Source: Escherichia coli (GTDB lineage: Bacteria > Pseudomonadota > Gammaproteobacteria > Enterobacterales > Enterobacteriaceae). Taken from it: a stretch of 64,000 bases of DNA. A program made the position numbers and the translations under genes. Below, piece after piece: positions 21,716 through 44,673 of the stretch (position 1 is the first letter of the stretch; each line of letters begins with the position of its first letter). The stretch lies in NCBI RefSeq assembly GCF_048403405.1, contig NZ_CP183129.1; one strand, 5' to 3'. A model generated the notes under the pieces. That model searched no databases. It worked only from the letters and a program-made list of their open reading frames with translations, and was not told the DNA's origin.

Positions 21716-21974
21716 CCACCACTATTTCATTAAACAGGGTTATCCAGACATGGCGGCACACAAAAATATCTCCGGGAAAAACCCCCTCTCTGACGAAGAC
21801 ATTTTGCAGGCGGTTTACCGGGTATGTTTCAGCCCGTCCGGTGAAATCAACCGGGATGGCGTGGATGCGCTGATTACAACACTGGATCGCCGTATCAGTG
21901 ATCTATTGGATGAGATTATCCATTTTTGTGAGTTTCAGCAGAGCGCGTCGCACTGGCAGCGCGTACTTCACTGA
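21705..21974 (+). CDS. Small ORF (74-89 aa) paralogous to an N-terminal segment of TssC
   Basis: GVDALITTLDRRISDLLDEIIHFCEFQQSASHWQRV aligns with downstream TssC AVDSMIADIDERISRQMDVIIHAPAFQQVESFWRSL (17 of 36 identical); GTG at 21705 or ATG at 21750. Confidence 0.5.
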   Translation: MGNNHHYFIKQGYPDMAAHKNISGKNPLSDEDILQAVYRVCFSPSGEINRDGVDALITTLDRRISDLLDEIIHFCEFQQSASHWQRVLH

Positions 21975-22024
21975 TGGCGAAAAGCCGGTTTCAGAAACAC
22001 AGCTAAAACAGAAGGATTTTCAGT

Positions 22025-23500
22025 ATGTCTTTACAGGAAGAGGAACTCGTTTCCAGTCATGCCGGGCAGCCTGAGCAGGCATCGTCGCTGCTTGATCAAA
22101 TCATGGCACAGACCCGTATTCAGCCCGGTTCGGAAGGTTATGACGTTGCCCGCCAGGGTGTGACAGCCTTTATTGCCAGCATCCTGCAATCCACTGCATC
22201 TGCCGAACCGGTCAATAAACTGGCCGTGGACAGCATGATTGCAGATATTGATGAACGCATCAGCCGCCAGATGGATGTCATCATCCATGCGCCTGCCTTT
22301 CAGCAGGTCGAGTCGTTCTGGCGCTCACTGAAAACCATGGTGGATCGCGTTGATTTCCGTGAAAACATCAAGGTCAACGTGCTTCATGTCACCAAGCAGG
22401 AACTTCTGGAAGACTTTGAGTTTGCGCCAGAAATTATTCAGTCCGGATTTTATAAGCACGTTTATTCGTCCGGTTTCGGACAGTTTGGCGGTGAACCCAT
22501 CGCTGCCGTGCTGGGCGCTTATGAGTTCAAAAATACCGCGCCTGACATGAAACTGCTGCAATACGTCAGTGCCGTGGGCGCAATGGCGCACGCACCGTTC
22601 CTGTCCTCCGTTTCCCCGGAGTTTATGGGGCTGAACTCGTGGACCGAACTGCCTAATATCAAAGATCTTTATGCCATCTTTGAAGGTCCGGCCTACACCA
22701 AATGGCGCGCCCTGCGAGACTCGGAAGATTCGCGCTATATAGGGCTTACGGCACCCCGCTTCCTGCTTCGCCAGCCTTATTCACCAACAGATAACCCTGT
22801 TAAGAACTTTAACTATCACGAAGATGTCAGCCGGAACCACGAAGATTATCTGTGGGGTAATACGGCCTGGATGCTGGCGTGCAATGTCGCAGACAGTTTT
22901 GCCAAATACCGCTGGTGTCCAAATATCATCGGTCCGCAAAGCGGCGGCGCAGTGAAAGATCTGCCGGTGCATCTGTTCGAAACGATGGGTCAGATTCAGG
23001 CCAAAATCCCAACCGAGGTGCTGGTCACCGATCGCCGCGAATTTGAACTGGCTGAAGAGGGTTTTATCACCCTTACCATGCGTAAAGACTCTGATAATGC
23101 AGCCTTTTTCTCTGCAAACTCGGTACAAAAACCGAAGCACTTTCCGGGCAAAGACGCAGAAACCAACTATAAGTTGGGTACGCAGCTTCCTTATCTCTTC
23201 ATCATCAATCGGTTAGCGCACTACATCAAGGTGTTGCAGCGTGAACAACTGGGGTCATGGAAAGAAAGGAGCGACTTAGAGAGGGAGCTTAATACCTGGA
23301 TCCGTCAGTATGTTGCCGACCAGGAAAACCCGCCTGCGGACGTGCGCAGCCGCAAGCCTCTGCGTGCTGCCAGAGTTGAGGTTATGGATGTGGAAGGCGA
23401 ACCCGGCTGGTACCAGGTCGCGCTGAGCGTGCGGCCCCATTTTAAATTTATGGGGGCAAACTTTGAGCTTTCCCTGGTTGGCCGGTTAGACAGGGAGTAA
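22025..23500 (+). CDS. tssC: T6SS sheath large subunit TssC (VipB)
   Basis: 491 aa, typical TssC. Confidence 0.9.
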   Translation: MSLQEEELVSSHAGQPEQASSLLDQIMAQTRIQPGSEGYDVARQGVTAFIASILQSTASAEPVNKLAVDSMIADIDERISRQMDVIIHAPAFQQVESFWRSLKTMVDRVDFRENIKVNVLHVTKQELLEDFEFAPEIIQSGFYKHVYSSGFGQFGGEPIAAVLGAYEFKNTAPDMKLLQYVSAVGAMAHAPFLSSVSPEFMGLNSWTELPNIKDLYAIFEGPAYTKWRALRDSEDSRYIGLTAPRFLLRQPYSPTDNPVKNFNYHEDVSRNHEDYLWGNTAWMLACNVADSFAKYRWCPNIIGPQSGGAVKDLPVHLFETMGQIQAKIPTEVLVTDRREFELAEEGFITLTMRKDSDNAAFFSANSVQKPKHFPGKDAETNYKLGTQLPYLFIINRLAHYIKVLQREQLGSWKERSDLERELNTWIRQYVADQENPPADVRSRKPLRAARVEVMDVEGEPGWYQVALSVRPHFKFMGANFELSLVGRLDRE

Positions 23501-23506
23501 CACGCC

Positions 23507-23920
23507 ATGATACCGGATCGGGAAAGAACCACAGGTTCTCTTTTTGAGCGTATGGAAGCCTCACCGGCCAGAAACTGGCAAGGAAGCAGTATTCATGCGC
23601 TCAGGCAGTCCATTCGCCAGAACCTGCGAAACATTCTTAATACCCGATCCGGTAGTTGCCGGGGTGCGCCTGAACTGGGCATTGATGAACCTGAAGGGGC
23701 TGAAAACTTCCGCGAATCAATGAGTCTGGCCATCGCGCAATGTATAGAACGCTATGAACCCCGGATCTCACACGCTGAAGTGCAGGCTGTGGTTTCATCC
23801 GCCGCCAGCCCGCTGGATATGACGTTTCGTATTACAGCCTGGGTGACATTTAACGAAACGCATGAGGTGCTTGAATTTGATATGGCACCGAATGGCAGCC
23901 AGCATTACCGGGTGGACTGA
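23507..23920 (+). CDS. tssE: T6SS baseplate protein TssE (gp25-like)
   Basis: 137 aa, GSLFERM... N-terminus typical of TssE. Confidence 0.85.
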   Translation: MIPDRERTTGSLFERMEASPARNWQGSSIHALRQSIRQNLRNILNTRSGSCRGAPELGIDEPEGAENFRESMSLAIAQCIERYEPRISHAEVQAVVSSAASPLDMTFRITAWVTFNETHEVLEFDMAPNGSQHYRVD

Positions 23921-23923
23921 CAA

Positions 23924-25774
23924 ATGGAATTTGAAGAACGCTATTTCCGGGAAGAACTCGATTACCTGCGCCAGCTTAGCAAGCTGCTGGCAACGGAAAA
24001 ACCCCATCTGGCCCGCTTCCTGGCCGAAAAAGATGCAGATCCGGATATTGAACGCCTGCTGGAAGGGGTGGCTTTTCTTACCGGCAATCTCCGCCAGAAA
24101 ATTGAGGATGAATTCCCAGAACTGACGCACGGGCTTATTAAGATGCTATGGCCTAATTACCTGCGTCCGGTTCCGGCAATGACCCTTATTGAATATACGC
24201 CGGATATGGATAAGTCTTCTGTACCGGTGTTAATCCCCCGTAATGAGCAGTTTACAACCAACGCCGGGGAAATCAGAGTTGATGAAGTGCTGCCCTCTGA
24301 TGCTAAAAAGGAGGAGCCTCCTCCCTGTACCTTCACCCTCTGCCGGGATATCTGGCTGCTGCCCGTTCGCCTGGAGCAGATTGAAAACCGCAGTACGACC
24401 CGTAATGGTGTTATCAACATCACCTTTTCGGTCGCACCGGGAACGGACTTCCGCACGCTGGATCTGAACAAACTTCGCTTCTGGCTCGGCAATGACGACA
24501 ACTATACCCGTGACCAGCTTTATTTATGGTTCTGTGAATACTTGCAGGGTGCCGACCTGACTGTGGGTGAACAGCATATTCGCCTGCCTGAGTTTATGCT
24601 GAAAGCTGTCGGTTTTGAGCCGCAGGATGCCATGCTGCCCTGGCCGAAAAACGTCCACAGCGGCTACCGGATCCTTCAGGAGTATTTCTGTTACCCCGAT
24701 GCGTTTCTCTTTTTTGATCTTTGTGGTTGTCCGGCTTTGCCTGACGGATTGCAGGCGGAATTCTTTACCCTGCAACTGCGTTTTTCGCGCCCTTTGCCCG
24801 TGGACATCCGGCTGCGCCGCGATTCCCTGCGCCTGTATTGCGCACCTGCCATTAATTTATTTATCCACCATGCAGAAGCCATCACGCTGGACAACCGGCG
24901 GGCAGACTATCCGCTGGTTCCCAGCCGCCATTACCCACAACATTACGATGTATTTTCCGTTAACAGTGTGGTGAGCCAGGTCCAGGATATGTTCAGGAAA
25001 AAAGATCTGGGGCGTCCTGTTTCGACGCAGGCCGCGCGCCAGTGGCCAGCCTTTGAAAGTTTCAGCCATCAGATGGAATACAGCCGGAAGCGGGAAGTGG
25101 TGTACTGGCATCACCGGACCAAAACATCCCTGTTCCATCGCGGCTTTGATCATACTCTTGCCTTTATACATGCTGATGGCAGTTATCCGTCAGATGAATC
25201 TCTGCTCAGTAATGAAGTGGTTTCGGTATCGCTGACCTGTACCAACCGTGAGCTTCCGTCACAAATTCGTTCCGGCGATATCACCGGCACAACCGGTAAA
25301 AATGCGGCTGTTGCTTCATTTCGCAACATTACCCGCCCGACGCAACCACTCTGGCCGGTCATTGATGGCAGCCTGCACTGGTCCCTACTCTCCGCCATGA
25401 ACCTGAATTATCTGTCATTACTGGATACGGACGCGCTGAAGCAGGTCATCGCCAACTTTGATCGCCACGCAATCCATCATCCGCAGACGGCGCGGCTGTC
25501 ACAACAAAAGCTGGATGCCATTGAGCGTCTGGAGACTCGCCCTGTCGACCGCCTGTTTACGGGCATTCCCGTCCGGGGGCTGGCCTCCACGCTGTATCTG
25601 CACCCGGAGCCGTTTGTCTGTGAAGGGGAAATGTATCTGCTCGGTACGGTGCTTTCGCATTTTCTGTCGCTGTACGCCAGCGTTAACTCATTCCACATGC
25701 TGACCGTTGTGAACACAGAAAGCCAGGAGACATGGAAATGGACGGAAAGAACCGGGCAGCATCCTCTTATCTGA
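23924..25774 (+). CDS. tssF: T6SS baseplate protein TssF
   Basis: 616 aa, MEFEERYFREELDYLRQL... typical TssF. Confidence 0.85.
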   Translation: MEFEERYFREELDYLRQLSKLLATEKPHLARFLAEKDADPDIERLLEGVAFLTGNLRQKIEDEFPELTHGLIKMLWPNYLRPVPAMTLIEYTPDMDKSSVPVLIPRNEQFTTNAGEIRVDEVLPSDAKKEEPPPCTFTLCRDIWLLPVRLEQIENRSTTRNGVINITFSVAPGTDFRTLDLNKLRFWLGNDDNYTRDQLYLWFCEYLQGADLTVGEQHIRLPEFMLKAVGFEPQDAMLPWPKNVHSGYRILQEYFCYPDAFLFFDLCGCPALPDGLQAEFFTLQLRFSRPLPVDIRLRRDSLRLYCAPAINLFIHHAEAITLDNRRADYPLVPSRHYPQHYDVFSVNSVVSQVQDMFRKKDLGRPVSTQAARQWPAFESFSHQMEYSRKREVVYWHHRTKTSLFHRGFDHTLAFIHADGSYPSDESLLSNEVVSVSLTCTNRELPSQIRSGDITGTTGKNAAVASFRNITRPTQPLWPVIDGSLHWSLLSAMNLNYLSLLDTDALKQVIANFDRHAIHHPQTARLSQQKLDAIERLETRPVDRLFTGIPVRGLASTLYLHPEPFVCEGEMYLLGTVLSHFLSLYASVNSFHMLTVVNTESQETWKWTERTGQHPLI

Positions 25775-26820
25775 GTCCGGGAAATCCCCCGGCAGATAAA
25801 GAGCAGAATGATCCGCTGGCACAGGTTTTTCATAACGCCTGCTCTTACAATTTTTTTGCGATGGCGGAGCTGTTGCACCGCCTGGCACAGGGTGAAAAGG
25901 GGACGCCGGAATTATCCCTGCGCGACGATCCGGCACAGGAAACCCTGCGTTTCAGCGCCGATGCCAGCCTTGCGTTTCCCCTGAGTGATATCAGTGCGCT
26001 GAAACGGGATACGTCAGGGGCATTCAGGATGACCACTACCTTTATGGGGTTACAGGGGAGCCAGTCGCCTCTCCCCGGTTATTACCTCGATCACCTGGCC
26101 TGGAAAGCGGTACATGAACAAAGTCCGGTAGGTGATTTTCTGGATATGTTCAGCCACCGCCTGACCCAGTTTGTCTGGCATATCTGGCGTAAGTACCGCT
26201 ATCACATCAGTTTTCGTAACGGCGGTGTGGATGCGTTCTCGCAGCGCATGTACTCCCTTGTTGGGCTGGGCCACCGCCAGCTTCGCGATAAGCTGGCGAT
26301 TAATCACAGCAAAATGCTGGCGTATTCCGGGATCCTGGCAAATCCGGGACGATCCCCGGAAATAATCTGCGGTCTGGTGTCCCACTGTTTTGATTTGTCA
26401 GACGTGACGCTGCAAAACTGGCAACGTCGCAAGGTGGATATTGAACCGGATCAGCAAAATAGCCTGGGGAGTTATTCACTTAAAAATGGCGAAAAACTGG
26501 CAGGAAGATCGGTACTGGGCAACTTTGTTCTGGGTACACGGGTGCCCGATCTCAGCGGAAAATTCCAGCTCAGTATTACCAGCCTGACCCGAAAACAGTT
26601 CCTCTCTTTTCTGCCGTCCGGCGAAAACTTCCTGCCACTGACGATGTTTGTGTCCTTCATCCTGCGCGATCAGCTTGCCTGGGACTTACATCTGGGGCTG
26701 GCGCCGGAGCAGGTGGGCGCAATGCGCCTGGGCGATAACAAAAGTGCGCTGCTGGGCTGGACCAGCTTCCTCGGCACACCGGAAGAACGACCTTCAGTCA
26801 CCATCAGGGTACGGTCGTAA
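25732..26820 (+). CDS. tssG: T6SS baseplate protein TssG (start uncertain)
   Basis: 362 aa ORF overlapping tssF end; YNFFAMAELLHRLA resembles the TssG N-terminal motif. Confidence 0.8.
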   Translation: MEMDGKNRAASSYLSPGNPPADKEQNDPLAQVFHNACSYNFFAMAELLHRLAQGEKGTPELSLRDDPAQETLRFSADASLAFPLSDISALKRDTSGAFRMTTTFMGLQGSQSPLPGYYLDHLAWKAVHEQSPVGDFLDMFSHRLTQFVWHIWRKYRYHISFRNGGVDAFSQRMYSLVGLGHRQLRDKLAINHSKMLAYSGILANPGRSPEIICGLVSHCFDLSDVTLQNWQRRKVDIEPDQQNSLGSYSLKNGEKLAGRSVLGNFVLGTRVPDLSGKFQLSITSLTRKQFLSFLPSGENFLPLTMFVSFILRDQLAWDLHLGLAPEQVGAMRLGDNKSALLGWTSFLGTPEERPSVTIRVRS

Positions 26821-26823
26821 ATT

Positions 26824-28125
26824 ATGATAATCACGGAGCAGAATATGCCGGAAGAGAAACTACAGACGCTTTCATTGCAGGTCATTAACGGCAGTGAGCT
26901 GGAAAGCGGGCGGGCGGCGCGCTGTCTGTTCACACAGCAGGGAAATGTCGGCCATGGCCCCGAATGCCACTGGTCGGTACAGGATCGTCAGCAGAGCATT
27001 CCGGCTCAGGCTTTTACCGTTATCCTGCACGATGGCACATTTTGTCTGCGCCCGCAGACGGCACAACTGTGGCTGAACCAAGCAAAAGTCACAGCAACAT
27101 CAGACCTGATACAGCTGCGCCAGGGCGATGAGATCCAGATAGGGCGTCTGATGGTGAGGGTTCATCTGAACCGGGGAGATATCCCCCATTACGATGAGGA
27201 AATGGCCACTCCCGAAACCATCGTCACCAATCGCGATATGCTCACGGATACCCTGCTGTCAACGGAGGGTGCGCCACACTATCCGGGAATGACTCACCGG
27301 CATCAGCTTGCAGACACCGTGGTAAACGGTTTTTCTGCCGATCCACTCCAGGCTCTTCAGTCCGAAAGCCTGATTACCACGGGCGATCCGCTTTCAGGCA
27401 TTGCGGCTGTCCGGCCATCGGCACCGCTGTCCGATCCGGCAAGTAATGGGGGGATCAATACGCCGTTTATGGATCTGCCGCCCATTTATGCCAGCCCCGG
27501 CGATCGTAATGATGACGTCTCTGTGGCAGAAATGGCGCAACGCCACCTTGCGGTCACCCCCTTACTGCGCGGTCTCGGCGGTTCGCTTACCGTGAGCAAT
27601 TCCGACGATGCGGATGATTTTCTGGAAGAGGCCGGACGAACGTTACAGGCCGCAATAAAAGGTCTGCTCGATTTGCAGCAACAGCGTAACAGCCTCTCAG
27701 ACAAACATTTGCGCCCGCTGGAAGATAACCCGCTGCGCCTGAACATGGATTACGCCACCGCGCTCGACGTGATGTTTGCCGAAGGTAAAAGTCCGGTACA
27801 TCTGGCGGCTCCCGCCGCTGTCAGTGAAAGCCTGCGCAATGTCCGCCACCACGAAGAAGCTAACCGGGCAGCGATTGTGGAGTCGCTTCGTGTCCTGCTG
27901 GATGCTTTCTCACCACAAAATCTGCTGCGCCGCTTTGTGCAGTACCGCCGCAGCCATGAACTGCGCCAGCCGCTGGATGATGCCGGAGCATGGCAAATGT
28001 ACAGCCATTATTACGAAGAACTGGCCTCCGATCGCCAGCAGGGGTTTGAGATGCTGTTTAACGAGGTCTACGCCCAGGTCTATGACCGGGTGCTTCGTGA
28101 AAAACAGCGGGAGCCGGAAGCATGA
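26824..28125 (+). CDS. tagH: FHA-domain T6SS accessory protein TagH
   Basis: 433 aa; N-terminal FHA-like region (LSLQVINGSELESGRAARCLF...GDEIQIGRLMV). Confidence 0.75.
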   Translation: MIITEQNMPEEKLQTLSLQVINGSELESGRAARCLFTQQGNVGHGPECHWSVQDRQQSIPAQAFTVILHDGTFCLRPQTAQLWLNQAKVTATSDLIQLRQGDEIQIGRLMVRVHLNRGDIPHYDEEMATPETIVTNRDMLTDTLLSTEGAPHYPGMTHRHQLADTVVNGFSADPLQALQSESLITTGDPLSGIAAVRPSAPLSDPASNGGINTPFMDLPPIYASPGDRNDDVSVAEMAQRHLAVTPLLRGLGGSLTVSNSDDADDFLEEAGRTLQAAIKGLLDLQQQRNSLSDKHLRPLEDNPLRLNMDYATALDVMFAEGKSPVHLAAPAAVSESLRNVRHHEEANRAAIVESLRVLLDAFSPQNLLRRFVQYRRSHELRQPLDDAGAWQMYSHYYEELASDRQQGFEMLFNEVYAQVYDRVLREKQREPEA

Positions 28126-28646
28126 ACAGGAAGGCGTTTCTGGCCTGCGTGCTGATGTGCGTCATATTAACCGGCTGCGAAACGGCGAAAAAAATCAGCG
28201 AGGTGATCAAAAACCCGGATATCCAGGTCGGGAGCCTGAAGGAGCAACCTTCGGAAATAACCGTCACCCTGCTGACCGAACCGGACACCAATACCAATGC
28301 GGAGGGTGAATCAGCCGCCGTGGATGTGCAACTGGTGTACCTGACTGACGACTCAAAATTGCTGGCAGCCGACTATGACCAGATAGCCAGTACGCCGCTA
28401 CCGGATGTGCTGGGTAAAAACTATATCGACCACCAGGATTTCAACCTGTTGCCGGACACCATCAAAACCCTGCCGCCGGTAAAGCTGGATGAGAAAACGC
28501 AGTTTATTGGTGTCGTGGCCTATTTCTCCGATGACCAGGCCACTGAATGGAAACAAATCGAGACGGTGGAAGGAACCGGCCACCATTACCGCCTGCTGGT
28601 GCATGTACGTCAAAGCAGCATCGAAATGAAAAAAGAGGATGAATAA
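28122..28646 (+). CDS. tssJ: T6SS outer-membrane lipoprotein TssJ
   Basis: 174 aa with lipobox (ILTGC); ATGA overlap with tagH stop. Confidence 0.85.
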   Translation: MNRKAFLACVLMCVILTGCETAKKISEVIKNPDIQVGSLKEQPSEITVTLLTEPDTNTNAEGESAAVDVQLVYLTDDSKLLAADYDQIASTPLPDVLGKNYIDHQDFNLLPDTIKTLPPVKLDEKTQFIGVVAYFSDDQATEWKQIETVEGTGHHYRLLVHVRQSSIEMKKEDE

Positions 28647-28648
28647 TT

Positions 28649-29980
28649 ATGGCAACCACCCGCAACAAGGTGATGTGGCAGGAAGGGATGCTGATGCGCC
28701 CACACCATTTCCAGCAACAGCAGCGTTACAACGACTACCTGGATAACCAGCGTTTCCGGGCCATGAATGATTTATCCTGGGGATTTACCGAACTCACCCT
28801 CAACAATGAACTGCTGGCGCAGGGTAAGATCATGATTGACAGCGCGTCAGGCACACTGCCCGACGGCACCGTCTTTTCTATCCCCGACCAGGACGCACTG
28901 CCCGATCCGCTGCACCCGCAACATTTTCCGGACGAAAGAAGCCGCAATATTTACCTCGCTCTGCCGGTCGCCAGTGATGTGAGAAATGAAATCAGCGACG
29001 GGCGGCGAATCGGGCGTTACCGGCTGAATTATGCCGATGTCCGGGATCTGCATTCAGAAGAAGGTGACGCGCGAACACTGACGCTGGGTCAACTGACGCC
29101 GCGCATTATGAGCGGTGCAGAAGATATGAGCGCCTATATTACGCTCCCGCTTTGCCGTATCAGCGATCGCCATGCCGACGGCTCCCTGACGCTGGATGAC
29201 GATTTTATCCCCTCCTGCCAGAATATTCAGGTCAGTAAGAAACTGCGTGTTTATCTCAAAGAGGTACAGGGGGCCATTGGCGGACGGGCAAGCGATCTGG
29301 CAAACCGCATTGGCTCTCCGGCGCAGAGCGGCATCGCGGATGTGGCGGAATTTATGATGTTGCAGTTACTTAACCGTAACCAGACCCGGTTTACCCATCG
29401 CGCTCGTCGATCCCAGCTCCACCCGGAAGATTTCTACCTTGATCTTGCCGGGTTGCTGGGTGAACTGATGACCTTTACCGAGCCGTCGCGCCTGCCCTGC
29501 CCGCTTGATGTGTATGATCATCATGACCTGACCAAAACATTTAAAACGCTGTTACCGGAAGTCAAACGGGCGCTGCATACCGTACTGTCGCCAAGAGCCG
29601 TTAATCTGCCGCTGCATCTGCGTGACGGTATCTGGCAGGCCGATATCCATGACACAGAACTGCTGCAATCTGCCACCTTTGTGCTGGCCGTGGCGGCAAA
29701 CATGCCGGTCGATCAGATCCAGCGCCAGTTTATCCAGCAGTCGAAAATTTCCTCGCCGGAAAAAATCCGCAATATGGTCAGTGTGCAGATACCCGGCATT
29801 CCATTGCGTGCCCTGATGGTGGCTCCCCGCCAGCTTCCTTACCATTCCGGGTTCAGCTATTTCGAACTCGACAAGAGCGGCCAGGCCTGGACAGAAATGG
29901 CTGCCGCCGGGGCCGTTGCACTGCATGTATCCGGCAGTTTCCCGGATCTGAACATGCAACTGTGGGCGATAAGAGGGTAA
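28649..29980 (+). CDS. tssK: T6SS baseplate protein TssK
   Basis: 443 aa, MATTRNKVMWQEGMLMRPHHFQQQ... typical TssK. Confidence 0.9.
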   Translation: MATTRNKVMWQEGMLMRPHHFQQQQRYNDYLDNQRFRAMNDLSWGFTELTLNNELLAQGKIMIDSASGTLPDGTVFSIPDQDALPDPLHPQHFPDERSRNIYLALPVASDVRNEISDGRRIGRYRLNYADVRDLHSEEGDARTLTLGQLTPRIMSGAEDMSAYITLPLCRISDRHADGSLTLDDDFIPSCQNIQVSKKLRVYLKEVQGAIGGRASDLANRIGSPAQSGIADVAEFMMLQLLNRNQTRFTHRARRSQLHPEDFYLDLAGLLGELMTFTEPSRLPCPLDVYDHHDLTKTFKTLLPEVKRALHTVLSPRAVNLPLHLRDGIWQADIHDTELLQSATFVLAVAANMPVDQIQRQFIQQSKISSPEKIRNMVSVQIPGIPLRALMVAPRQLPYHSGFSYFELDKSGQAWTEMAAAGAVALHVSGSFPDLNMQLWAIRG

Positions 29981-29984
29981 GACG

Positions 29985-30746
29985 ATGGATGAGGGGTCAC
30001 TGTCTCTGCCACCATTTACCGGACACCACGAAAAAAGCCAGCGCGACTATCATCTCGCGCTTCGTGGCAACAGCCTGAATCCGATGATCGACGCAGCCAC
30101 GCCGCTCCTCGGTATGGTGATGCGCCTTTCAACCATGAACAGTCAGACGATGCCGGAGCATCTTTTTGCTCAGGTGGTGACGGATGTTCAGGCCGTGGAG
30201 CAACTGCTTCAGGAGCAGGGCTACGAACCGGGCGTGATTATCTCGTTTCGCTACATCCTCTGCACGTTTATTGATGAAGCGGCGCTCGGTAACGGCTGGT
30301 CGAACAAGAACGAGTGGATCAAGCAGTCATTGCTGGTCCATTTCCACAACGAAGCCTGGGGTGGAGAGAAAGTTTTCATCCTGCTGGAGCGCCTGATCCG
30401 TGAACCCAAACGTTACCAGGATCTGCTGGAATTTCTCTGGCTCTGTTTTTCTCTGGGATTTCGCGGGCGCTACAAAGTGGCAGCACAGGATCAGGGGGAA
30501 TTTGAGCAGATCTACCGCCGCCTGTACCACGTCCTGCATAAACTACGCGGCGATGCCCCTTTCCCGCTGTTACACCAGGACAAAAAAACCCAGGGCGGGC
30601 GTTATCAGCTCATCAGTCGCCTGACCATTAAACATATTTTTTGTGGTGGCGTTGTCGTGCTGGCGTTGTTTTACCTGTTCTATCTGTTGCGGTTGGACAG
30701 CCAGACGCAGGACATCCTGCACCAGCTAAACAAATTACTTCGATAA
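29985..30746 (+). CDS. tssL: T6SS membrane protein TssL (DotU/IcmH family), no peptidoglycan-binding extension
   Basis: 253 aa with single C-terminal TM helix (GGVVVLALFYLFYLL); ends right after the TM. Confidence 0.85.
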   Translation: MDEGSLSLPPFTGHHEKSQRDYHLALRGNSLNPMIDAATPLLGMVMRLSTMNSQTMPEHLFAQVVTDVQAVEQLLQEQGYEPGVIISFRYILCTFIDEAALGNGWSNKNEWIKQSLLVHFHNEAWGGEKVFILLERLIREPKRYQDLLEFLWLCFSLGFRGRYKVAAQDQGEFEQIYRRLYHVLHKLRGDAPFPLLHQDKKTQGGRYQLISRLTIKHIFCGGVVVLALFYLFYLLRLDSQTQDILHQLNKLLR

Positions 30747-30754
30747 GGACGTTT

Positions 30755-33556
30755 ATGATCCAGATTGATCTTCCCACGCTGGTAAAACGGCTTAACCTGT
30801 TCTCCCGCCAGGCGCTGGAGATGGCCGCCTCTGAATGTATGAGCCAGCAGGCAGCGGAAATTACCGTCAGCCATGTGCTTATTCAGATGCTCGCCATGCC
30901 ACGCAGCGACCTGCGGGTTATTACCCGCCAGGGCGATATTGGCATGGAAGAGTTGCGCCAGGCGCTGACGGTGGAGAACTACACAACTGCCCGTTCTGCG
31001 GACAGCTACCCGGCATTTTCCCCGATGCTGGTTGAGTGGCTGAAAGAGGGCTGGCTGCTGGCGTCGGCTGAGATGCAGCACAGCGAATTGCGTGGCGGCG
31101 TGTTGCTGCTGGCCCTGCTGCATTCGCCGCTGCGTTATATACCGCCTGCTGCCGCCCGGTTGTTGACCGGCATTAACCGTGACCGTCTGCAACAGGACTT
31201 TGTACAGTGGACACAGGAGTCGGCGGAATCAGTCGTGCCGGATGCAGACGGTAAAGTCGCAGGCACACTGACGGACGCTGCTGACACCCTGCTTGCCCGC
31301 TACGCCAAAAACATGACCGCAGACGCCCGTAACGGCAGGCTTGACCCGGTACTGTGCCGCGACCACGAAATCGACCTGATGATCGACATTCTCTGCCGCC
31401 GCCGCAAGAACAACCCGGTGGTGGTGGGCGAAGCAGGCGTGGGTAAAAGTGCCTTAATCGAAGGGCTGGCGCTGCGCATCGTGGCAGGCCAGGTGCCGGA
31501 CAAACTGAAAAACACCGATATCATGACCCTTGACCTAGGCGCATTGCAGGCCGGGGCGTCGGTGAAGGGCGAATTCGAAAAACGCTTCAAGGGGCTGATG
31601 GCGGAGGTCATTTCCTCTCCGGTGCCGGTCATTCTGTTTATTGACGAAGCACATACCCTGATTGGCGCGGGCAACCAGCAGGGCGGGCTGGATATCTCCA
31701 ACCTGCTCAAACCGGCGCTGGCGCGCGGCGAACTGAAAACCATCGCCGCCACCACCTGGAGCGAATACAAAAAATACTTCGAGAAAGATGCCGCCCTGTC
31801 GCGCCGCTTCCAGCTGGTGAAGGTCAGCGAACCCAACGCCGCCGAAGCCACCATTATTCTGCGTGGTCTGTCGGCGGTCTATGAACAGTCTCACGGCGTG
31901 CTGATTGATGATGACGCCTTGCAGGCCGCAGCAACGCTGAGCGAACGTTATCTCTCCGGGCGTCAGTTGCCGGACAAAGCCATTGATGTGCTGGATACCG
32001 CCTGCGCCCGCGTCGCCATTAACCTTTCCTCGCCGCCGAAGCAAATCTCGGCGCTGACCACTCTGAGCCACCAGCAGGAGGCGGAAATTCGCCAGCTTGA
32101 GCGCGAGCTTCGCATCGGGCTGCGTACCAACACCTCACGGATGACCGAGGTGCTGGTGCAGTACGATGAAACGCTGACGGCGCTGGATGAACTGGAAGCG
32201 GCCTGGCATCAGCAGCAGGCGCTGGTCCGGGAGATTATCGCGCTGCGCCAGCAGTTGCTGGGCGTGGCAGAAGACGATGCGGCGTCGTTGCCGGACGCAG
32301 ATGCCGCGGAGGATACGCCGCCAGAGTCAGAGTCAGAGTCAGAGTCAGAGTCAGAGTCAGAGTCAGAGTCAGAACAGGATAATACCGGTGCCGTACCGGC
32401 TGATGAGGCCGACAGAGAACAGCCGGAAGAGACCGCTGAAACAGTTTCCCCGGTACAGCGGCTGGCCCAGCTCACTGCCGAACTGGACGCCCTGCATAAC
32501 GACCGGTTGCTGGTCTCCCCGCACGTCGATAAAAAACAGATTGCGGCGGTGATTGCCGAATGGACCGGCGTGCCGCTCAACCGCCTGTCGCAGAATGAAA
32601 TGTCGGTCATCACCGACCTGCCGAAATTGCTGGGCGACACCATCAAAGGCCAAGACCTGGCGATTGCCAGCCTGCATAAGCATCTACTGACCGCACGCGC
32701 CGACCTGCGTCTTCCGGGACGCCCGCTCGGTGCGTTCCTGCTGGCTGGCCCCAGCGGTGTGGGTAAAACCGAAACCGTCCTGCAACTGGCAGAGCTGCTC
32801 TACGGCGGTCGCCAGTACCTGACCACCATCAATATGTCCGAATTCCAGGAGAAACACACCGTCTCGCGGCTGATTGGTTCGCCTCCGGGCTACGTTGGCT
32901 ACGGTGAAGGCGGCGTACTGACCGAAGCGATTCGCCAGAAACCCTACTCGGTAGTACTGCTCGATGAAGTGGAAAAAGCGCACCCGGATGTGCTCAACCT
33001 GTTCTACCAGTCGTTCGATAAGGGCGAAATGGCAGACGGTGAAGGCCGCCTGATTGACTGCAAAAATATCGTCTTCTTCCTGACGTCCAACCTCGGCTAC
33101 CAGGTAATAGTCGAGCACGCCGATGACCCGGAAACCATGCAGGAAGAACTGTATCCGGTGCTGGCCGACTTCTTCAAACCTGCCCTGCTGGCGCGTATGG
33201 AAGTGGTGCCGTATCTGCCGCTGTCGAAAGAGACGCTCGCCACCATTATCGCCGGAAAACTGGCCCGTCTGGATAACGTGCTGCGCAGTCGCTTTGGTGC
33301 AGAAGTGGTCATTGAACCGGAAGTGACGGACGAAATCATGAGCCGCGTCACCCGCGCGGAAAACGGCGCGAGGATGCTGGAATCGGTCATCGATGGCGAC
33401 ATGCTACCGCCGCTCTCGCTGCTGCTGTTGCAGAAAATGGCGGCTAACACGGCGATTGCCCGGATTCGGTTGTCGGCGGTGGACGACGCATTTACGGCAG
33501 ACGTGGAAGATGCTCAGAACGACGAGTCCGTCACAAAGGATGAAACGGTTTTATGA
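30755..33556 (+). CDS. clpV: T6SS AAA+ ATPase ClpV (TssH)
   Basis: ORF 30641..33556; start at ATG 30755 (MIQIDLPTLVKRL); two Walker A motifs (GEAGVGKSA, GPSGVGKTE). Confidence 0.9.
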   Translation: MIQIDLPTLVKRLNLFSRQALEMAASECMSQQAAEITVSHVLIQMLAMPRSDLRVITRQGDIGMEELRQALTVENYTTARSADSYPAFSPMLVEWLKEGWLLASAEMQHSELRGGVLLLALLHSPLRYIPPAAARLLTGINRDRLQQDFVQWTQESAESVVPDADGKVAGTLTDAADTLLARYAKNMTADARNGRLDPVLCRDHEIDLMIDILCRRRKNNPVVVGEAGVGKSALIEGLALRIVAGQVPDKLKNTDIMTLDLGALQAGASVKGEFEKRFKGLMAEVISSPVPVILFIDEAHTLIGAGNQQGGLDISNLLKPALARGELKTIAATTWSEYKKYFEKDAALSRRFQLVKVSEPNAAEATIILRGLSAVYEQSHGVLIDDDALQAAATLSERYLSGRQLPDKAIDVLDTACARVAINLSSPPKQISALTTLSHQQEAEIRQLERELRIGLRTNTSRMTEVLVQYDETLTALDELEAAWHQQQALVREIIALRQQLLGVAEDDAASLPDADAAEDTPPESESESESESESESESEQDNTGAVPADEADREQPEETAETVSPVQRLAQLTAELDALHNDRLLVSPHVDKKQIAAVIAEWTGVPLNRLSQNEMSVITDLPKLLGDTIKGQDLAIASLHKHLLTARADLRLPGRPLGAFLLAGPSGVGKTETVLQLAELLYGGRQYLTTINMSEFQEKHTVSRLIGSPPGYVGYGEGGVLTEAIRQKPYSVVLLDEVEKAHPDVLNLFYQSFDKGEMADGEGRLIDCKNIVFFLTSNLGYQVIVEHADDPETMQEELYPVLADFFKPALLARMEVVPYLPLSKETLATIIAGKLARLDNVLRSRFGAEVVIEPEVTDEIMSRVTRAENGARMLESVIDGDMLPPLSLLLLQKMAANTAIARIRLSAVDDAFTADVEDAQNDESVTKDETVL
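32322..32369 (+). repeat. Hexanucleotide microsatellite (CAGAGT)x8 inside clpV, encoding (ES)n
   Basis: Eight perfect tandem CAGAGT units; in frame (CCA GAG TCA GAG ...) giving PESESESESESESESE. Confidence 0.95.
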
Positions 33557-34296
33557 GCAGGTTGCGCGTTTTCCGGCAGACAGGATGGTTTATCGCGGGC
33601 CTGATGACGGGCTTACCCGCCACTGCCGCGCCCGCAGAAACATCGTCAATGGCCGGTGTGGCGGTCGCCGTCGCCACCACGACCCCGCCGGATGCGACAG
33701 CCACGTCACAGGCCATGCAGTCCTGTCGGCGGGAGTCCGCGGCGCTGGAGCGGCTTGACTGCTATGACCGCCTGCTGGCACCGCTGTCCCCGTCAGGGTT
33801 TGACGGGGCGCTGGTCAAAGCCGGTTTTGTGGGCGAGGCCTGGACCCGCGCCACAGAGCAGGAAAAACGTCGCGAGGGCAACACCACAGAACTGCTGGTG
33901 ACGCAGGTGCCGGGGGAGCGCCCGACGGTGGTGATAACCACCCCGGCTATCGGCCATGTTCCGCCGCGCCCGGTGCTGATGTTCAGTTGCGTGGACAATA
34001 TCACCCGGATGCAGGTGGCGCTGATGCACCCTCTGGATGTCCATGATATCGCCGTCACTCTGAATGCCGACAGCCGGGCATTGCGTAGCCACTGGTTTGT
34101 GCGCGAGAACGGCACCCTGCTGGAGTCCAGCCGGGGGCTGTCCGGGATTGATGAAATTAAGCAACTGTTCGGCGCAAAAACGCTGACAGTGGATACCGGC
34201 GCAGATAACGCCGCAGGAAAGCTGACCTTTAACATTGACGGGCTGGCAAGGGCGATTGCCCCCCTGCGCGTTGCCTGCCACTGGGCGGGAGAATAA
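33553..34296 (+). CDS. Secreted T6SS-associated protein, VasI-like by position (name from recollection of the Vibrio cholerae cluster)
   Basis: 247 aa with signal peptide; ATGA overlap with clpV stop; sits between clpV and tssA where vasI lies in V. cholerae. Confidence 0.55.
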   Translation: MSRLRVFRQTGWFIAGLMTGLPATAAPAETSSMAGVAVAVATTTPPDATATSQAMQSCRRESAALERLDCYDRLLAPLSPSGFDGALVKAGFVGEAWTRATEQEKRREGNTTELLVTQVPGERPTVVITTPAIGHVPPRPVLMFSCVDNITRMQVALMHPLDVHDIAVTLNADSRALRSHWFVRENGTLLESSRGLSGIDEIKQLFGAKTLTVDTGADNAAGKLTFNIDGLARAIAPLRVACHWAGE

Positions 34297-40642: not shown

Positions 40643-41125
40643 ATGGCAAATATGAGTTATTTATCTTTGAGTGGAGAGACACAAGGGCTGATTTCAGCAG
40701 GTTGCTCAACGCTTGATTCTGTCGGAAACAAAGCACAGCCAGAACATAAAGATCAGATCATGGTTTATGCGTTAATGCATTCCATCTCAAGAAGTCAAAA
40801 TGTCAATCATCATGAATTAATTATCACCAAACCGGTTGATAAATCCTCACCATTGCTGGCAAAAGCACTTAGTGACAATGAAAAAATGGTAACATGTGAA
40901 TTTATACTCTACCGAACCAGTAAAGCGGGTATTTACCAGCCTTATTATAAAATAAACCTGTCAAAAGCCCGAATATCAAGTATTGATTTTGTCACACCGC
41001 ATGCTGTCCTGGAAAAAGAACTGGAGCCACAGGAGAGAATTGCCTTTATTTATGAAGATATTTCCTGGGAGCATACGTTAGCCGGTACGAATGCAATGAG
41101 TAAATGGCAGGATCGTGTACAGTAA
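40643..41125 (+). CDS. Second Hcp-family protein (Hcp2)
   Basis: 160 aa; Hcp-like profile (ELIITKPVDKSSPLLAKALSDNEKM...ISWEH); AAGGAG RBS; last T6SS-type gene of the plus-strand operon. Confidence 0.75.
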   Translation: MANMSYLSLSGETQGLISAGCSTLDSVGNKAQPEHKDQIMVYALMHSISRSQNVNHHELIITKPVDKSSPLLAKALSDNEKMVTCEFILYRTSKAGIYQPYYKINLSKARISSIDFVTPHAVLEKELEPQERIAFIYEDISWEHTLAGTNAMSKWQDRVQ

Positions 41126-41168
41126 TTTACTGTAATAACATAATAAATTACTATTGCGGAGAGATATA

Positions 41169-42083
41169 ATGGCTGGTTTAAGGAATAATAACAACACACA
41201 GAATGCACAGTGGGCTGATTATGTGGGTGACATTCTTCGGGGGGCTCAACCGATAAACCAGCTAGTACCTCAGCACCCTTATCTTAACGACGTCCCACTC
41301 ATTGATGAATTAAGGCGTCAGAACACTCATCATGTTATTCTCTTGACACTTGATGTTGCAAAAAAAATACTCAGCTCAATAACATCATTTGATTACATTC
41401 ATTTTATCACTACACATCCTTCAGGTATAAAAGATACACTCGCTTGGTTAGTTAACGCGGGTAAATTAATGACTGAGTTTGATGGAAATGGGAAAATTAT
41501 ATTTAACTTTAATACCTTAAAGTATACAAAAGCAAGTTACTTTGAAATACTTGGAGAGAAATATATAAAAATTACAACATCCAGCCCCTGGCTTTTAGAA
41601 AAGCTCGGTAAATATATTTTCTCTTCACGAGCGCCTCAAGTTCTGGAACTCGCTATTGGCTGGCGAGGAGCTTTATCTGAATCAATAAAAGGAGTTAAGT
41701 TCTGTATCTGGTTTTCAGTAGCCTGGAGAACCATAGAATTTATTATGAGTTCAGAGCGAGATCTGGTTAATTTTCTTGGTGATTTTTCAATGGATGTGGC
41801 CAAAGCAGTGATTGCAGGCGGTGTTGCAACTGCTATTGGAAGCCTGGCTTCTTTTGCCTGTCTTAGTTTTGGCCTTCCAGTAATTCTTGTAGGAGGAGCA
41901 ATTTTACTTACAGGGATAGTGTGTACAGTTGTTTTAAATGAAATCGATGCTCAATACCATTTATCAGAAAAATTAAAAGATGCAATTAGAGATGGACTAA
42001 AACGGCAACAGGAACTTGATAAATGGAAAAGGGAAAACATGACTCCATTTATGTATGTTCTTAACACTTCCCCCGTGATATGA
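41169..42083 (+). CDS. Hypothetical membrane protein with C-terminal glycine-zipper helical hairpin; candidate Hcp2-dependent effector
   Basis: ORF 41154..42083; ATG 41169; C-terminal AKAVIAGGVATAIGSLASFACLSFGLPVILVGGAILLTGIVCTVVL; visibly AT-rich; 43 bp after hcp2. Confidence 0.45.
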   Translation: MAGLRNNNNTQNAQWADYVGDILRGAQPINQLVPQHPYLNDVPLIDELRRQNTHHVILLTLDVAKKILSSITSFDYIHFITTHPSGIKDTLAWLVNAGKLMTEFDGNGKIIFNFNTLKYTKASYFEILGEKYIKITTSSPWLLEKLGKYIFSSRAPQVLELAIGWRGALSESIKGVKFCIWFSVAWRTIEFIMSSERDLVNFLGDFSMDVAKAVIAGGVATAIGSLASFACLSFGLPVILVGGAILLTGIVCTVVLNEIDAQYHLSEKLKDAIRDGLKRQQELDKWKRENMTPFMYVLNTSPVI

Positions 42084-42247: not shown

Positions 42248-42523
42248 GTGGCTTCTGTTTCTATCAGCTGTCCCTCCTGTTCAGCTACTGACGGGGTGGT
42301 GCGTAACGGCAAAAGCACCGCCGGACATCAGCGCTATCTCTGCTCTCACTGCCGTAAAACATGGCAACTGCAGTTCACTTACACCGCTTCTCAACCCGGT
42401 ACGCACCAGAAAATCATTGATATGGCCATGAATGGCGTTGGATGCCGGGCAACCGCCCGCATTATGGGCGTTGGCCTCAACACGATTTTCCGCCATTTAA
42501 AAAACTCAGGCCGCAGTCGGTAA
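42248..42523 (+). CDS. insA: IS1 InsA
   Basis: 91 aa [30 protein letters not shown]... Confidence 0.95.
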
Positions 42524-42945
42524 CCTCGCGCATACAGCCGGGCAGTGACGTCATCGTCTGCGCGGAAATGGACGAACAGTGGGGATACGTCGGGGCTAAA
42601 TCGCGCCAGCGCTGGCTGTTTTACGCGTATGACAGGCTCCGGAAGACGGTTGTTGCGCACGTATTCGGTGAACGCACTCTGGCCACACTGGAGCGTCTTC
42701 TAAGCCTGCTGTCGGCCTTTGAGGTCGTGGTATGGATGACGGATGGCTGGCCGCTGTATGAATCCCGCCTGAAGGGAAAGCTGCACGTAATCAGCAAGCG
42801 TTACACTCAGCGAATTGAGCGGCATAACCTGAATCTGAGACAACATCTGGCAAGGCTGGGACGGAAGTCACTGTCGTTCTCAAAATCGGTGGAGCTGCAT
42901 GACAAGGTCATCGGGCATTATCTGAACATAAAACACTATCAGTAA
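42442..42945 (+). CDS. insB: IS1 InsB (expressed as InsAB' by -1 frameshift)
   Basis: 167 aa ORF overlapping insA 3' end in the -1 frame. Confidence 0.9.
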
Positions 42946-44596: not shown

Positions 44597-44673
44597 TGGC
44601 GGAACGGACGGGACTCGAACCCGCGACCCCCTGCGTGACAGGCAGGTATTCTAACCGACTGAACTACCGCTCC
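44597..44673 (-). tRNA. aspV: tRNA-Asp (GTC)
   Basis: Reverse complement is GGAGCGGTAGTTCAGTCGGTTAGAATACCTGCCTGTCACGCAGGGGGTCGCGGGTTCGAGTCCCGTCCGTTCCGCCA. Confidence 0.97.

What the first reader, a model, noticed from the sequence alone, without database searches (positions are those of the whole stretch)
26824..28125. FHA-domain protein present without cognate kinase, phosphatase or sigma-54 activator
TagH carries a recognisable FHA domain, yet the island encodes no Ser/Thr kinase or phosphatase (PpkA/PppA type) and no VasH-type enhancer-binding protein at the position it occupies in the Vibrio cholerae cluster as I recall it. Post-translational activation via threonine phosphorylation and sigma-54 control are therefore unlikely here, unless a kinase is encoded elsewhere.
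Basis: inference. Interest (0 to 1): 0.4.

Follow-up and report, generated by a model that had tools for sequence, protein, structure and literature searches.

The report
Kinase-less TagH in E. coli T6SS-2
The gene is the ordinary TagH scaffold protein of the common E. coli type VI secretion cluster, which really has no linked kinase, phosphatase or sigma-54 activator, and its FHA domain has lost the residues that normally bind phosphothreonine, so it probably works without phosphorylation.

Summary
The window is the aspV-linked T6SS-2 island of E. coli. It is 100% identical over 10 kb to strain 4621, and tagH is in about 2,100-2,280 of 5,426 complete genomes. The gene at 26845-28125 is a bona fide TagH: TIGR03354 341 bits, T6SS_FHA_C 142 bits, and an FHA fold in the AF2 model.

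No Ser/Thr kinase, PP2C phosphatase, TagF or sigma-54 activator is in the 64 kb. The clpV stop overlaps the vasI start, so vasH has no room. No -24/-12 promoter lies upstream of tssB, hcp1 or hcp2.

This is not unusual.
- V. cholerae-type clusters also lack PpkA/PppA (literature; 8 relatives checked here).
- None of 80 Enterobacterales/Pasteurellaceae loci has a kinase or a full VasH.
- 43 of 75 keep only a ~264-aa protein with an HTH_8 domain at the vasH site; 32, including E. coli, have nothing there.

Canonical residues occur only in the TagH homologues whose clusters carry kinase and PP2C (4 of 4).

tagH is under purifying selection. TagH is most likely a phosphorylation-independent assembly scaffold, and the cluster is probably sigma-70 transcribed and H-NS silenced. 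Known system; low interest.

The parts
26845..28125 (+). tagH (426 aa).
   Evidence: TIGR03354 341.5 bits; PGAP annotation in the identical strain 4621; GGAG 5 nt before ATG 26845.
26866..27171 (+). FHA-fold domain (residues 8-109) with a degenerate pThr pocket: G36-H37, P53-A54-Q55-A56, T72-A73-Q74.
   Evidence: Pfam FHA 22.2 bits against GA 20.7. AF2 pLDDT 79-91 with beta-strands at 8-13, 26-29, 33-36, 57-62, 65-70, 75-77, 80-82, 96-99 and 102-109. Foldseek hits FhaA, GarA, OdhI and Rad53. The profile alignment to Rad53 FHA1 gives the residue equivalences.
27175..27516 (+). Predicted disordered linker (residues 111-224).
   Evidence: AF2 pLDDT below 50 over 111-224. dN/dS 0.03-0.11 among E. 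coli alleles.
27568..28089 (+). C-terminal helical T6SS_FHA_C domain.
   Evidence: PF20232 142 bits; AF2 helices 227-422.
33553..33556 (+). clpV(tssH)/vasI junction. The stop and start codons overlap at the position where vasH sits in Vibrio-type clusters.
   Evidence: ORF coordinates. A full sigma-54 activator lies at this position in L005, L008, L009, L010, L011, L012, L099 and L101.
20519..21214 (.). Divergent hcp1/tssB intergenic region. AT-rich (25-34% GC); sigma-70-like sites only; no sigma-54 -24/-12 element.
21215..21715 (+). tssB, first gene of the structural operon.
   Evidence: PF05591 175 bits.
20000..20518 (-). hcp1. In Vibrio the equivalent gene is the VasH/sigma-54 target.
   Evidence: PF05638; no -24/-12 site upstream.
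40643..41125 (+). hcp2.
   Evidence: PF05638; best upstream sigma-54 score 5 of 12.
29985..30746 (+). tssL (DotU, short form). It is the PpkA substrate in A. tumefaciens; no evidence of that here.
   Evidence: PF09850 196.7 bits; sequence.
30755..33556 (+). clpV/tssH.
33553..34296 (+). vasI.
   Evidence: PF11319 178.6 bits.

Best explanation
This tagH encodes the accessory scaffold protein of the E. coli T6SS-2 machine, which has the V. cholerae-like gene order. It most likely acts without phosphorylation.

Proposed mechanism (inferred). The N-terminal FHA-fold domain serves as a phospho-independent protein-protein interaction module. The ~115-residue disordered linker and the helical C-terminal domain help to concentrate and bridge membrane-complex components (TssL/TssM) and baseplate components (TssE/G/K) so that assembly can start. 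This follows what has been reported for Fha of Acidovorax, P. aeruginosa and V. cholerae.

Regulation (inferred). The lineage has lost the kinase/phosphatase switch and, in Enterobacteriaceae, also the VasH/sigma-54 switch. Control is then mainly transcriptional, from sigma-70 promoters in the AT-rich hcp-tssB intergenic region that H-NS silences.

Shown here: gene identity, domain architecture, FHA fold, replacement of four of the five hallmark FHA residues, absence of kinase, phosphatase, VasH and sigma-54 promoter in the window, the same absences across relatives, and purifying selection.

Inferred only: scaffold function, phospho-independence, and H-NS/sigma-70 control in this strain.
For: - Identity and architecture.
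- Pocket. The profile-to-PDB alignment puts H37, P53, A56 and A73 at Rad53 R70, S85, H88 and N107; only G36 (G69) is kept. These residues fall in the loops after strand 33-36, before strand 57-62, and between strands 65-70 and 75-77 of the model.
- Comparison. None of about 88 TagH from kinase-less clusters has the Arg; they carry H, S, C, A or Y. Only 3 of about 85 diverse 50%-cluster representatives have GR + SxxH + TNG. Every canonical-FHA TagH with enough context sits with Pkinase and PP2C: L006, L007, L096, L098. Arg-less TagH sit with VasH and no kinase.
- Pfam FHA score falls in step: 66 and 52 bits (kinase-linked), 41 and 37 (Vibrio type), 26 (Photorhabdus), 22 (E. coli), none (Rahnella).
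- A. tumefaciens Fha R30 and S46 are needed for pThr-TssL binding and Hcp secretion.
- V. cholerae TagH is required for Hcp secretion, no phosphorylation was detected, and there is no PpkA/PppA.
- Scaffold/condensate role of Fha, including V. cholerae Fha.
- Purifying selection on all three parts: whole-gene dN/dS 0.03-0.16 among four E. coli alleles.
- The orthologous aspV-linked T6SS in EHEC is functional and H-NS repressed. The intergenic region here is 25-34% GC.
Against: - No experiment on this protein; phospho-independence is inferred from sequence.
- In V. cholerae TagH, S38A and K54A, which lie at the same pocket positions, reduce Hcp secretion. The pocket region may therefore still bind a ligand, possibly an acidic or phosphorylated one.
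- H37 is conserved in the Enterobacteriaceae clade and could contact an anion.
- E. coli has unlinked Ser/Thr kinases and phosphatases such as YegI/PphC.
- The kinase/canonical-FHA association rests on only 4 kinase-linked loci and is not corrected for phylogeny.
- The C-terminal domain of the model has only moderate confidence, and pTM is 0.31.
Confidence: 0.68

Rival explanations
1. TagH still works as a phosphothreonine reader. An unlinked kinase (for example YegI, with PphC as phosphatase) phosphorylates a T6SS component such as TssL, and the FHA domain binds it through a non-canonical pocket.
For: The yegI-pphC locus matches in 5,416 of 5,426 E. coli genomes. PphC is a PP2C_2 protein. Pocket-position mutants S38A and K54A in V. 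cholerae TagH impair Hcp secretion. The review PMC10482370 raises unidentified kinases as a possibility. TssL has Thr12 near its N-terminus.
Against: The Arg and Ser that contact the phosphate in every characterised FHA-pThr complex, and that A. tumefaciens Fha needs, are H37 and P53 here. yegI-pphC is also present in K-12, which lacks this T6SS. No phosphorylation of TagH was seen in V. cholerae. No kinase is linked in any of about 90 related loci.
Confidence: 0.13
2. The FHA domain is a vestige with no function of its own. Only the linker and the C-terminal T6SS_FHA_C domain matter.
For: The Pfam FHA score is barely above threshold, and close homologues are pre-annotated with PF20232 only. 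The C-terminal domain is the best conserved part across distant relatives, at 37-49% identity against no detectable N-terminal match.
Against: The fold is confidently predicted. G36, W43 and D47 are invariant, and L11, N15, L91, D95, G100 and V106 nearly invariant, across very distant TagH. FHA-region dN/dS is 0-0.38 among E. coli alleles, based on few substitutions. Deleting the FHA domain abolishes secretion in A. tumefaciens.
Confidence: 0.1
3. The cluster is a silent or decaying relic, so its regulatory gaps have no functional meaning.
For: The cluster sits in an IS-ridden island with ISEc1, IS1 and, in strain 4621, IS66. T6SS regions have been lost in some E. coli lineages. EHEC expression is very low in vitro.
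Against: All 13 core genes are intact ORFs here. The region is 95-100% conserved in more than 2,000 genomes. tagH is under purifying selection. The EHEC orthologue secretes Hcp once H-NS is removed.
Confidence: 0.06

Closest known systems
V. cholerae VasC/TagH (VCA0112) in the vipA-vasL large cluster
   Same: Same gene order, tssB-C-E-F-G-tagH-tssJ-K-L-clpV-...-vasI-vasJ-vasK-vasL, seen here in Vibrio, Salinivibrio and Photobacterium relatives. Same FHA + linker + T6SS_FHA_C architecture. No PpkA/PppA. The Arg of the GR motif is missing (G-S in the Vibrio type).
   Different: The Vibrio type keeps vasH and sigma-54 sites upstream of hcp, and usually keeps the His of SxxH. E. coli has lost vasH, the sigma-54 sites and also the Ser, His and Asn. 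Protein identity is only about 31-35%.
Threonine phosphorylation pathway Fha proteins (P. aeruginosa Fha1, S. marcescens Fha, A. tumefaciens Fha)
   Same: Homologous family (TIGR03354) with the same three-part architecture. Required for T6SS assembly.
   Different: Those clusters encode PpkA and PppA (with or without TagF and TagQRST), and their FHA domains keep GR / SxxH / N. The clusters with canonical TagH found here (L006, L007, L096, L098) all carry Pkinase and PP2C. The E. coli cluster has none of these.
E. coli T6SS-2 (aspV island; EHEC EDL933 z0243-z0275, ST410 locus)
   Same: Same locus: aspV tRNA, two hcp genes, two tssA-like genes, Rhs and an FHA gene. 97.9% DNA identity of tagH to O157:H7.
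   Different: Only strain-level differences in IS content and the Rhs tip.
Acidovorax citrulli Fha (condensate-forming assembly initiator)
   Same: FHA + intrinsically disordered region + C-terminal domain. Proposed scaffold role, reported as conserved for V. cholerae Fha.
   Different: A. citrulli Fha is longer and works with PpkA/TssW (PMC12607579, abstract). Condensate formation was not tested for the E. coli protein.

Membership tests
TagH/Fha, T6SS-associated FHA protein (TIGR03354) | Whole-protein match above the curated cutoff | tested here: met
   341.5 bits against a cutoff of 120.25, profile positions 1-420 of 420.
TagH/Fha, T6SS-associated FHA protein (TIGR03354) | C-terminal T6SS_FHA_C domain (PF20232) | tested here: met
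   142.1 bits.
TagH/Fha, T6SS-associated FHA protein (TIGR03354) | Encoded inside a T6SS cluster, between tssG and tssJ | tested here: met
   Same position in 80 or more related loci.
TagH/Fha, T6SS-associated FHA protein (TIGR03354) | Required for Hcp secretion and T6SS assembly | not testable with these tools
   Shown for V. cholerae, A. tumefaciens, P. aeruginosa and A. citrulli homologues only.
Canonical phosphothreonine-binding FHA domain (PF00498) | FHA beta-sandwich fold | tested here: met
   AF2 pLDDT 79-91. Foldseek against PDB: TM 0.79-0.83 to FhaA, GarA and OdhI.
Canonical phosphothreonine-binding FHA domain (PF00498) | Pfam gathering threshold | tested here: met
   22.2 bits against 20.7, which is marginal. 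Close homologues are pre-annotated without PF00498.
Canonical phosphothreonine-binding FHA domain (PF00498) | Conserved pThr-binding and loop residues G-R, S-x-x-H, N (Rad53 G69, R70, S85, H88, N107) | tested here: not met
   Only the Gly is kept. R→H37, S→P53, H→A56, N→A73.
Canonical phosphothreonine-binding FHA domain (PF00498) | Binds phosphothreonine peptides | not testable with these tools
   Needs ITC or peptide arrays.
T6SS threonine phosphorylation pathway (PpkA-PppA-Fha, with or without TagF/TagQRST) | Hanks-type kinase PpkA in or near the cluster | tested here: not met
   No Pkinase hit in any ORF. tblastn with 4 T6SS kinases is negative in the window and in 80 related loci.
T6SS threonine phosphorylation pathway (PpkA-PppA-Fha, with or without TagF/TagQRST) | PP2C phosphatase PppA in or near the cluster | tested here: not met
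T6SS threonine phosphorylation pathway (PpkA-PppA-Fha, with or without TagF/TagQRST) | TagF repressor | tested here: not met
   No ORF of the island matches a TagF family in Pfam. Mesorhizobium, which has a kinase, has tagF.
VasH/sigma-54-regulated T6SS (V. cholerae type) | Sigma-54 enhancer-binding protein between clpV and vasI | tested here: not met
   The clpV stop overlaps the vasI start. tblastn with EBP seeds is negative.
VasH/sigma-54-regulated T6SS (V. cholerae type) | -24 GG / -12 GC promoter upstream of hcp (or tssB) | tested here: not met
   The positive control gave 10 of 12 matches in Salinivibrio and Photobacterium.
E. coli T6SS-2 cluster (Journet & Cascales scheme, as used in PMC10711316) | Full tssA-M set, two tssA-like genes, two hcp, vgrG-rhs and an FHA gene at the aspV tRNA | tested here: met

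The most novel reading that the evidence does not exclude
The FHA domain of the whole V. cholerae/E. coli-type TagH lineage may be a 'pseudo-FHA'. On this reading it gave up phosphothreonine recognition when the lineage lost PpkA/PppA, and it now recognises an unphosphorylated partner. Enterobacterales then dismantled the second switch in steps: full VasH, then a ~264-aa HTH_8-only protein in Yersinia, Serratia, Photorhabdus and Xenorhabdus, then nothing in Escherichia, Citrobacter and the Pasteurellaceae. This would be a documented case of stepwise regulatory simplification of a secretion machine, with the FHA pocket as a sequence marker that predicts kinase dependence.
Probability: 0.5. Interest if true: 0.4.

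Novelty: already known. Interest (0 to 1): 0.22.

Why it matters
The cluster and its kinase-less TagH are already described, so the finding itself changes little. There is a practical use. The residues at the FHA pocket (GR / SxxH / N against GH or GS) appear to predict from sequence alone whether a T6SS is gated by threonine phosphorylation. This tells experimenters working on the widespread E. coli T6SS-2 (EHEC, ExPEC, ST410) to look for control at transcription, through H-NS and sigma-70, and not at a kinase or at RpoN.

The HTH-only gene at the vasH position in Yersiniaceae and Morganellaceae is a candidate sigma-54-independent regulator and may deserve a look.

Tried and rejected
- phmmer of TagH against PDB sequences gave no hit at E<=1. 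A profile of N-terminal domains was needed to reach Rad53, GarA and OdhI.
The narrower alignment A3 worked, but it returned only Enterobacterales and Pasteurellaceae. Kinase-linked comparators had to come from plasmid tblastn and the look-up of encoding contigs.
- Contigs for P0222 (canonical FHA) and P0198 were too short (7.5 kb and 3 kb) to judge kinase linkage.
- Bernard et al. 2011 (PMC3133059), on sigma-54 and T6SS, is not held.
- YegI does not score Pkinase in Pfam. It is therefore cited only as annotated, plus a weak tblastn hit.
- A pseudogene or decay reading of tagH was considered and rejected because of the dN/dS values.
- A sigma-54 site hidden inside tssB-tssC (21716-22024) was considered and rejected; the best score there is 7 of 12, on the wrong strand.

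Full report
**What is there.** The window is E. coli chromosome. Positions 20000-30000 are 100% identical to strain 4621 and to nine other complete genomes. The 10-kb segment is at least 80% covered in 2,066 of 5,426 complete E. coli genomes. The island lies next to tRNA-Asp (aspV, 44597-44673), between yafV/ivy/fadE on one side and dnaQ/rnhA on the other.

Pfam and PGAP give this gene order:
- Rhs (13071-17573, minus strand)
- vgrG (17649-19790, minus strand)
- hcp1 (20000-20518, minus strand)
- tssB (21215-21715)
- a 74-aa ORF
- tssC, tssE, tssF, tssG
- tagH
- tssJ, tssK, tssL
- clpV (30755-33556)
- vasI (33553-34296)
- tssA/vasJ, tssM, vasL
- hcp2 (40643-41125)

This is the T6SS-2 type of E. 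coli, with two tssA-like genes, two hcp genes, Rhs and an FHA gene, as described for ST410 and EHEC EDL933.

**The gene.** The ORF is real.
- ATG 26824 gives 433 aa. PGAP and the homologue alignments use ATG 26845 (426 aa), which has GGAG 5 nt upstream. I number from 26845.
- NCBIfam TIGR03354 (TagH) scores 341.5 bits against a cutoff of 120, and Pfam T6SS_FHA_C scores 142 bits.
- Pfam FHA reaches only 22.2 bits against a threshold of 20.7. Close homologues in the large protein collection are pre-annotated with PF20232 alone.
- An AlphaFold2 model built on a 16-sequence alignment shows a confident beta-sandwich at residues 8-109 (pLDDT 79-91), a disordered stretch at 111-224 (pLDDT below 50) and a helical C-terminal domain at 227-422.
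- Foldseek against the PDB returns only FHA domains at the top: FhaA 3oun with TM 0.82, then GarA, OdhI and Rad53 FHA1.

The description 'recognisable FHA domain' is therefore correct at the level of fold.

**The absences.**
- All coding space of the island is taken by T6SS, Rhs or IS genes.
- The flanks are core genes, none of them a protein kinase, a PP2C phosphatase or an enhancer-binding protein.
- tblastn with four T6SS-linked Hanks kinases, four PP2C phosphatases and three sigma-54 activators taken from related loci finds nothing in the window at E<=0.01. The kinase seeds are sensitive enough to detect the atypical K-12 kinase YegI.
- The clpV stop codon overlaps the vasI start (33553-33556), so there is no room for vasH.
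- No site with GG-N10-GC spacing scoring above 5 of 12 against TGGCACG-N4-TTGCW lies in the 400 bp upstream of tssB, hcp1 or hcp2.
- As a positive control, the same scan finds 10 of 12 matches 56-64 bp upstream of hcp in Salinivibrio and Photobacterium loci that carry VasH. This agrees with the published result that RpoN-VasH drives the hcp operons but not vipAB in V. cholerae V52.

**Is it unusual? No.** The literature states that V. cholerae has no PpkA or PppA, that its TagH is needed for Hcp secretion, and that no TagH phosphorylation was detected.

I checked eight loci from Vibrio, Salinivibrio, Photobacterium, Halomonas, Thalassospira and Bartonella, plus two metagenome or genome contigs.
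- The seven with full ±10 kb context have the same gene order as E. coli; the eighth (L099) has clpV-vasH-vasI on the opposite strand, upstream of tssB.
- All have a full sigma-54 activator between clpV and vasI and no kinase.

A scan of one genome per species returned 80 TagH loci from Enterobacterales and Pasteurellaceae.
- None has a kinase, a PP2C or a full activator within ±10 kb.
- Of the 75 that contain both clpV and vasI, 32 have no spacer (-60 to +93 bp). These are Escherichia, Citrobacter, Lelliottia, Buttiauxella, Trabulsiella, Enterobacter, some Rahnella and the Pasteurellaceae.
- The other 43 have a spacer, about 725-935 bp in 41 of them (two are larger), holding a ~264-aa gene. 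These are Yersinia, Serratia, Photorhabdus, Xenorhabdus and others.
- That gene's only Pfam domain is the Fis-type HTH_8 found at the C-terminus of VasH.

VasH thus appears to have been reduced and then lost within Enterobacterales.

**The FHA pocket.** A profile of TagH N-terminal domains aligns to Rad53 FHA1 (1g6g) over 69 residues. The equivalences are:

| Rad53 FHA1 | E. coli TagH |
|---|---|
| G69-R70 | G36-H37 |
| S85-N86-K87-H88 | P53-A54-Q55-A56 |
| S105-T106-N107-G108 | T72-(gap)-A73-Q74 |

Four of the five hallmark residues are replaced. They sit in the expected loops of the model: after strand 33-36, before strand 57-62, and between strands 65-70 and 75-77. In A. tumefaciens Fha the equivalents, R30 and S46, are required for binding phospho-TssL and for secretion.

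Across relatives:
- None of about 88 TagH from kinase-less clusters has the Arg. Enterobacteriaceae mostly have His; Vibrio, Yersinia and Photorhabdus types have Ser.
- Among about 85 full-length representatives of 50%-identity clusters nearest to the query, only three have GR + SxxH + TNG.
- The canonical ones with enough context all sit with Pkinase and PP2C. These are Rhizobium L006, Mesorhizobium L007, and L096 and L098, whose gene order resembles what I recall of the P. aeruginosa H2-T6SS.
- The Pfam FHA score declines in step: 66 and 52 bits (kinase-linked), 41 and 37 (Vibrio type), 26 (Photorhabdus), 22 (E. coli), none (Rahnella).

The association is strong but rests on four kinase-linked loci and is not corrected for phylogeny.

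**The gene is not decaying.** Among four E. coli alleles, including O157:H7, whole-gene dN/dS is 0.03-0.16. The FHA region gives 0-0.38 on few substitutions. The pocket residues H37 and IPAQAF are identical in all four alleles; position 73 is A in three and V in one. G36, W43 and D47 are invariant across very distant TagH.

**Most likely mechanism.** TagH here is a phosphorylation-independent assembly scaffold built from an FHA-fold interaction module, a disordered linker and a helical C-terminal domain. This is in line with the reported role of Fha in nucleating membrane-complex and baseplate assembly, including in V. cholerae.

Transcription most likely starts at sigma-70 promoters in the 696-bp hcp-tssB intergenic region, which is 25-34% GC and so a typical H-NS target. 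The orthologous EHEC cluster is silent in vitro, de-repressed in an hns mutant, and then secretes Hcp. These last steps are inferred for this strain.

**Remaining doubt.**
- An unlinked kinase cannot be excluded. The yegI-pphC kinase/PP2C locus matches in 5,416 of 5,426 E. coli genomes, but it is also in K-12, which has no T6SS-2.
- In V. cholerae, mutating the residues at two pocket positions (S38, K54) lowers Hcp secretion. The pocket surface may therefore still bind something; E. coli has H37 and Q55 at those positions.

**Verdict.** The situation is the normal state of a well-known, widespread T6SS lineage, so novelty is low. The modest new points are two. The pThr-binding residues are degenerate specifically in kinase-less TagH. 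VasH shows stepwise loss in Enterobacterales.

Noticed in passing
window 21750-21974 (+): A 74-aa ORF in the 309-bp tssB-tssC gap, annotated as hypothetical in RefSeq. It is 43% identical over 40 aa to residues 63-102 of the adjacent TssC (E = 2e-9), so it looks like a duplicated N-terminal TssC fragment. Rahnella and Vibrio relatives have no such gap.
   Followed up: partly
L004:21544-22332; L044:16556-17350; L049:16622-17419, and about 40 further loci: In Yersinia, Serratia, Rahnella victoriana, Photorhabdus and Xenorhabdus, the vasH position between clpV and vasI holds a ~264-aa gene. Its only Pfam domain is a C-terminal Fis-type HTH_8, with no sigma-54 AAA+ domain. It looks like a truncated VasH that might act as a sigma-54-independent regulator.
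   Followed up: partly
window 26824 vs 26845: tagH has two in-frame ATGs. The downstream one (26845) has a GGAG Shine-Dalgarno 5 nt upstream and matches the N-termini of homologues.
   Followed up: yes
window 20650-21100: The divergent hcp1/tssB intergenic region drops to 25-28% GC against about 53% in the genes on either side. This fits the H-NS silencing reported for the EHEC orthologue.
   Followed up: partly
window 11337-12458 (-), 42442-42945 (+); L001 10558-13173: IS elements differ between otherwise identical islands. The window has an ISAs1-family element (ISEc1) next to the Rhs immunity region and an IS1 transposase ORF after hcp2. Strain 4621 instead has an IS66 element that truncates the Rhs C-terminal tip, while the window's Rhs is an intact 1,500-aa ORF.
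   Followed up: no
window 12694-13071 (-): A 125-aa ORF immediately downstream of the Rhs toxin tip, with a weak DUF7674 match (20.7 bits, below threshold). It is a likely cognate immunity protein.
   Followed up: no
window 41154-42083 (+): A 309-aa ORF after hcp2 with no Pfam or NCBIfam match. The equivalent gene in strain 4621 is flagged as a pseudogene (internal stop) by PGAP. It may be an orphan effector or adaptor.
   Followed up: no
window 1707-3479 (+): An FHIPEP (FlhA-like) ORF that lacks the first ~98 profile positions. It is annotated as a partial FlhA pseudogene in strain 4621. From my own knowledge, this is probably a remnant of the Flag-2 lateral flagellar locus.
   Followed up: no
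L096:9289-10895; L098:8769-10399: Metagenomic T6SS clusters with the order fha-tssJ-tssK-tssL-tssM-PP2C-kinase-tssA-tssB carry fully canonical FHA pockets. From my own recollection, this order resembles the P. aeruginosa H2-T6SS. These clusters are useful positive comparators for predicting kinase dependence from sequence.
   Followed up: partly
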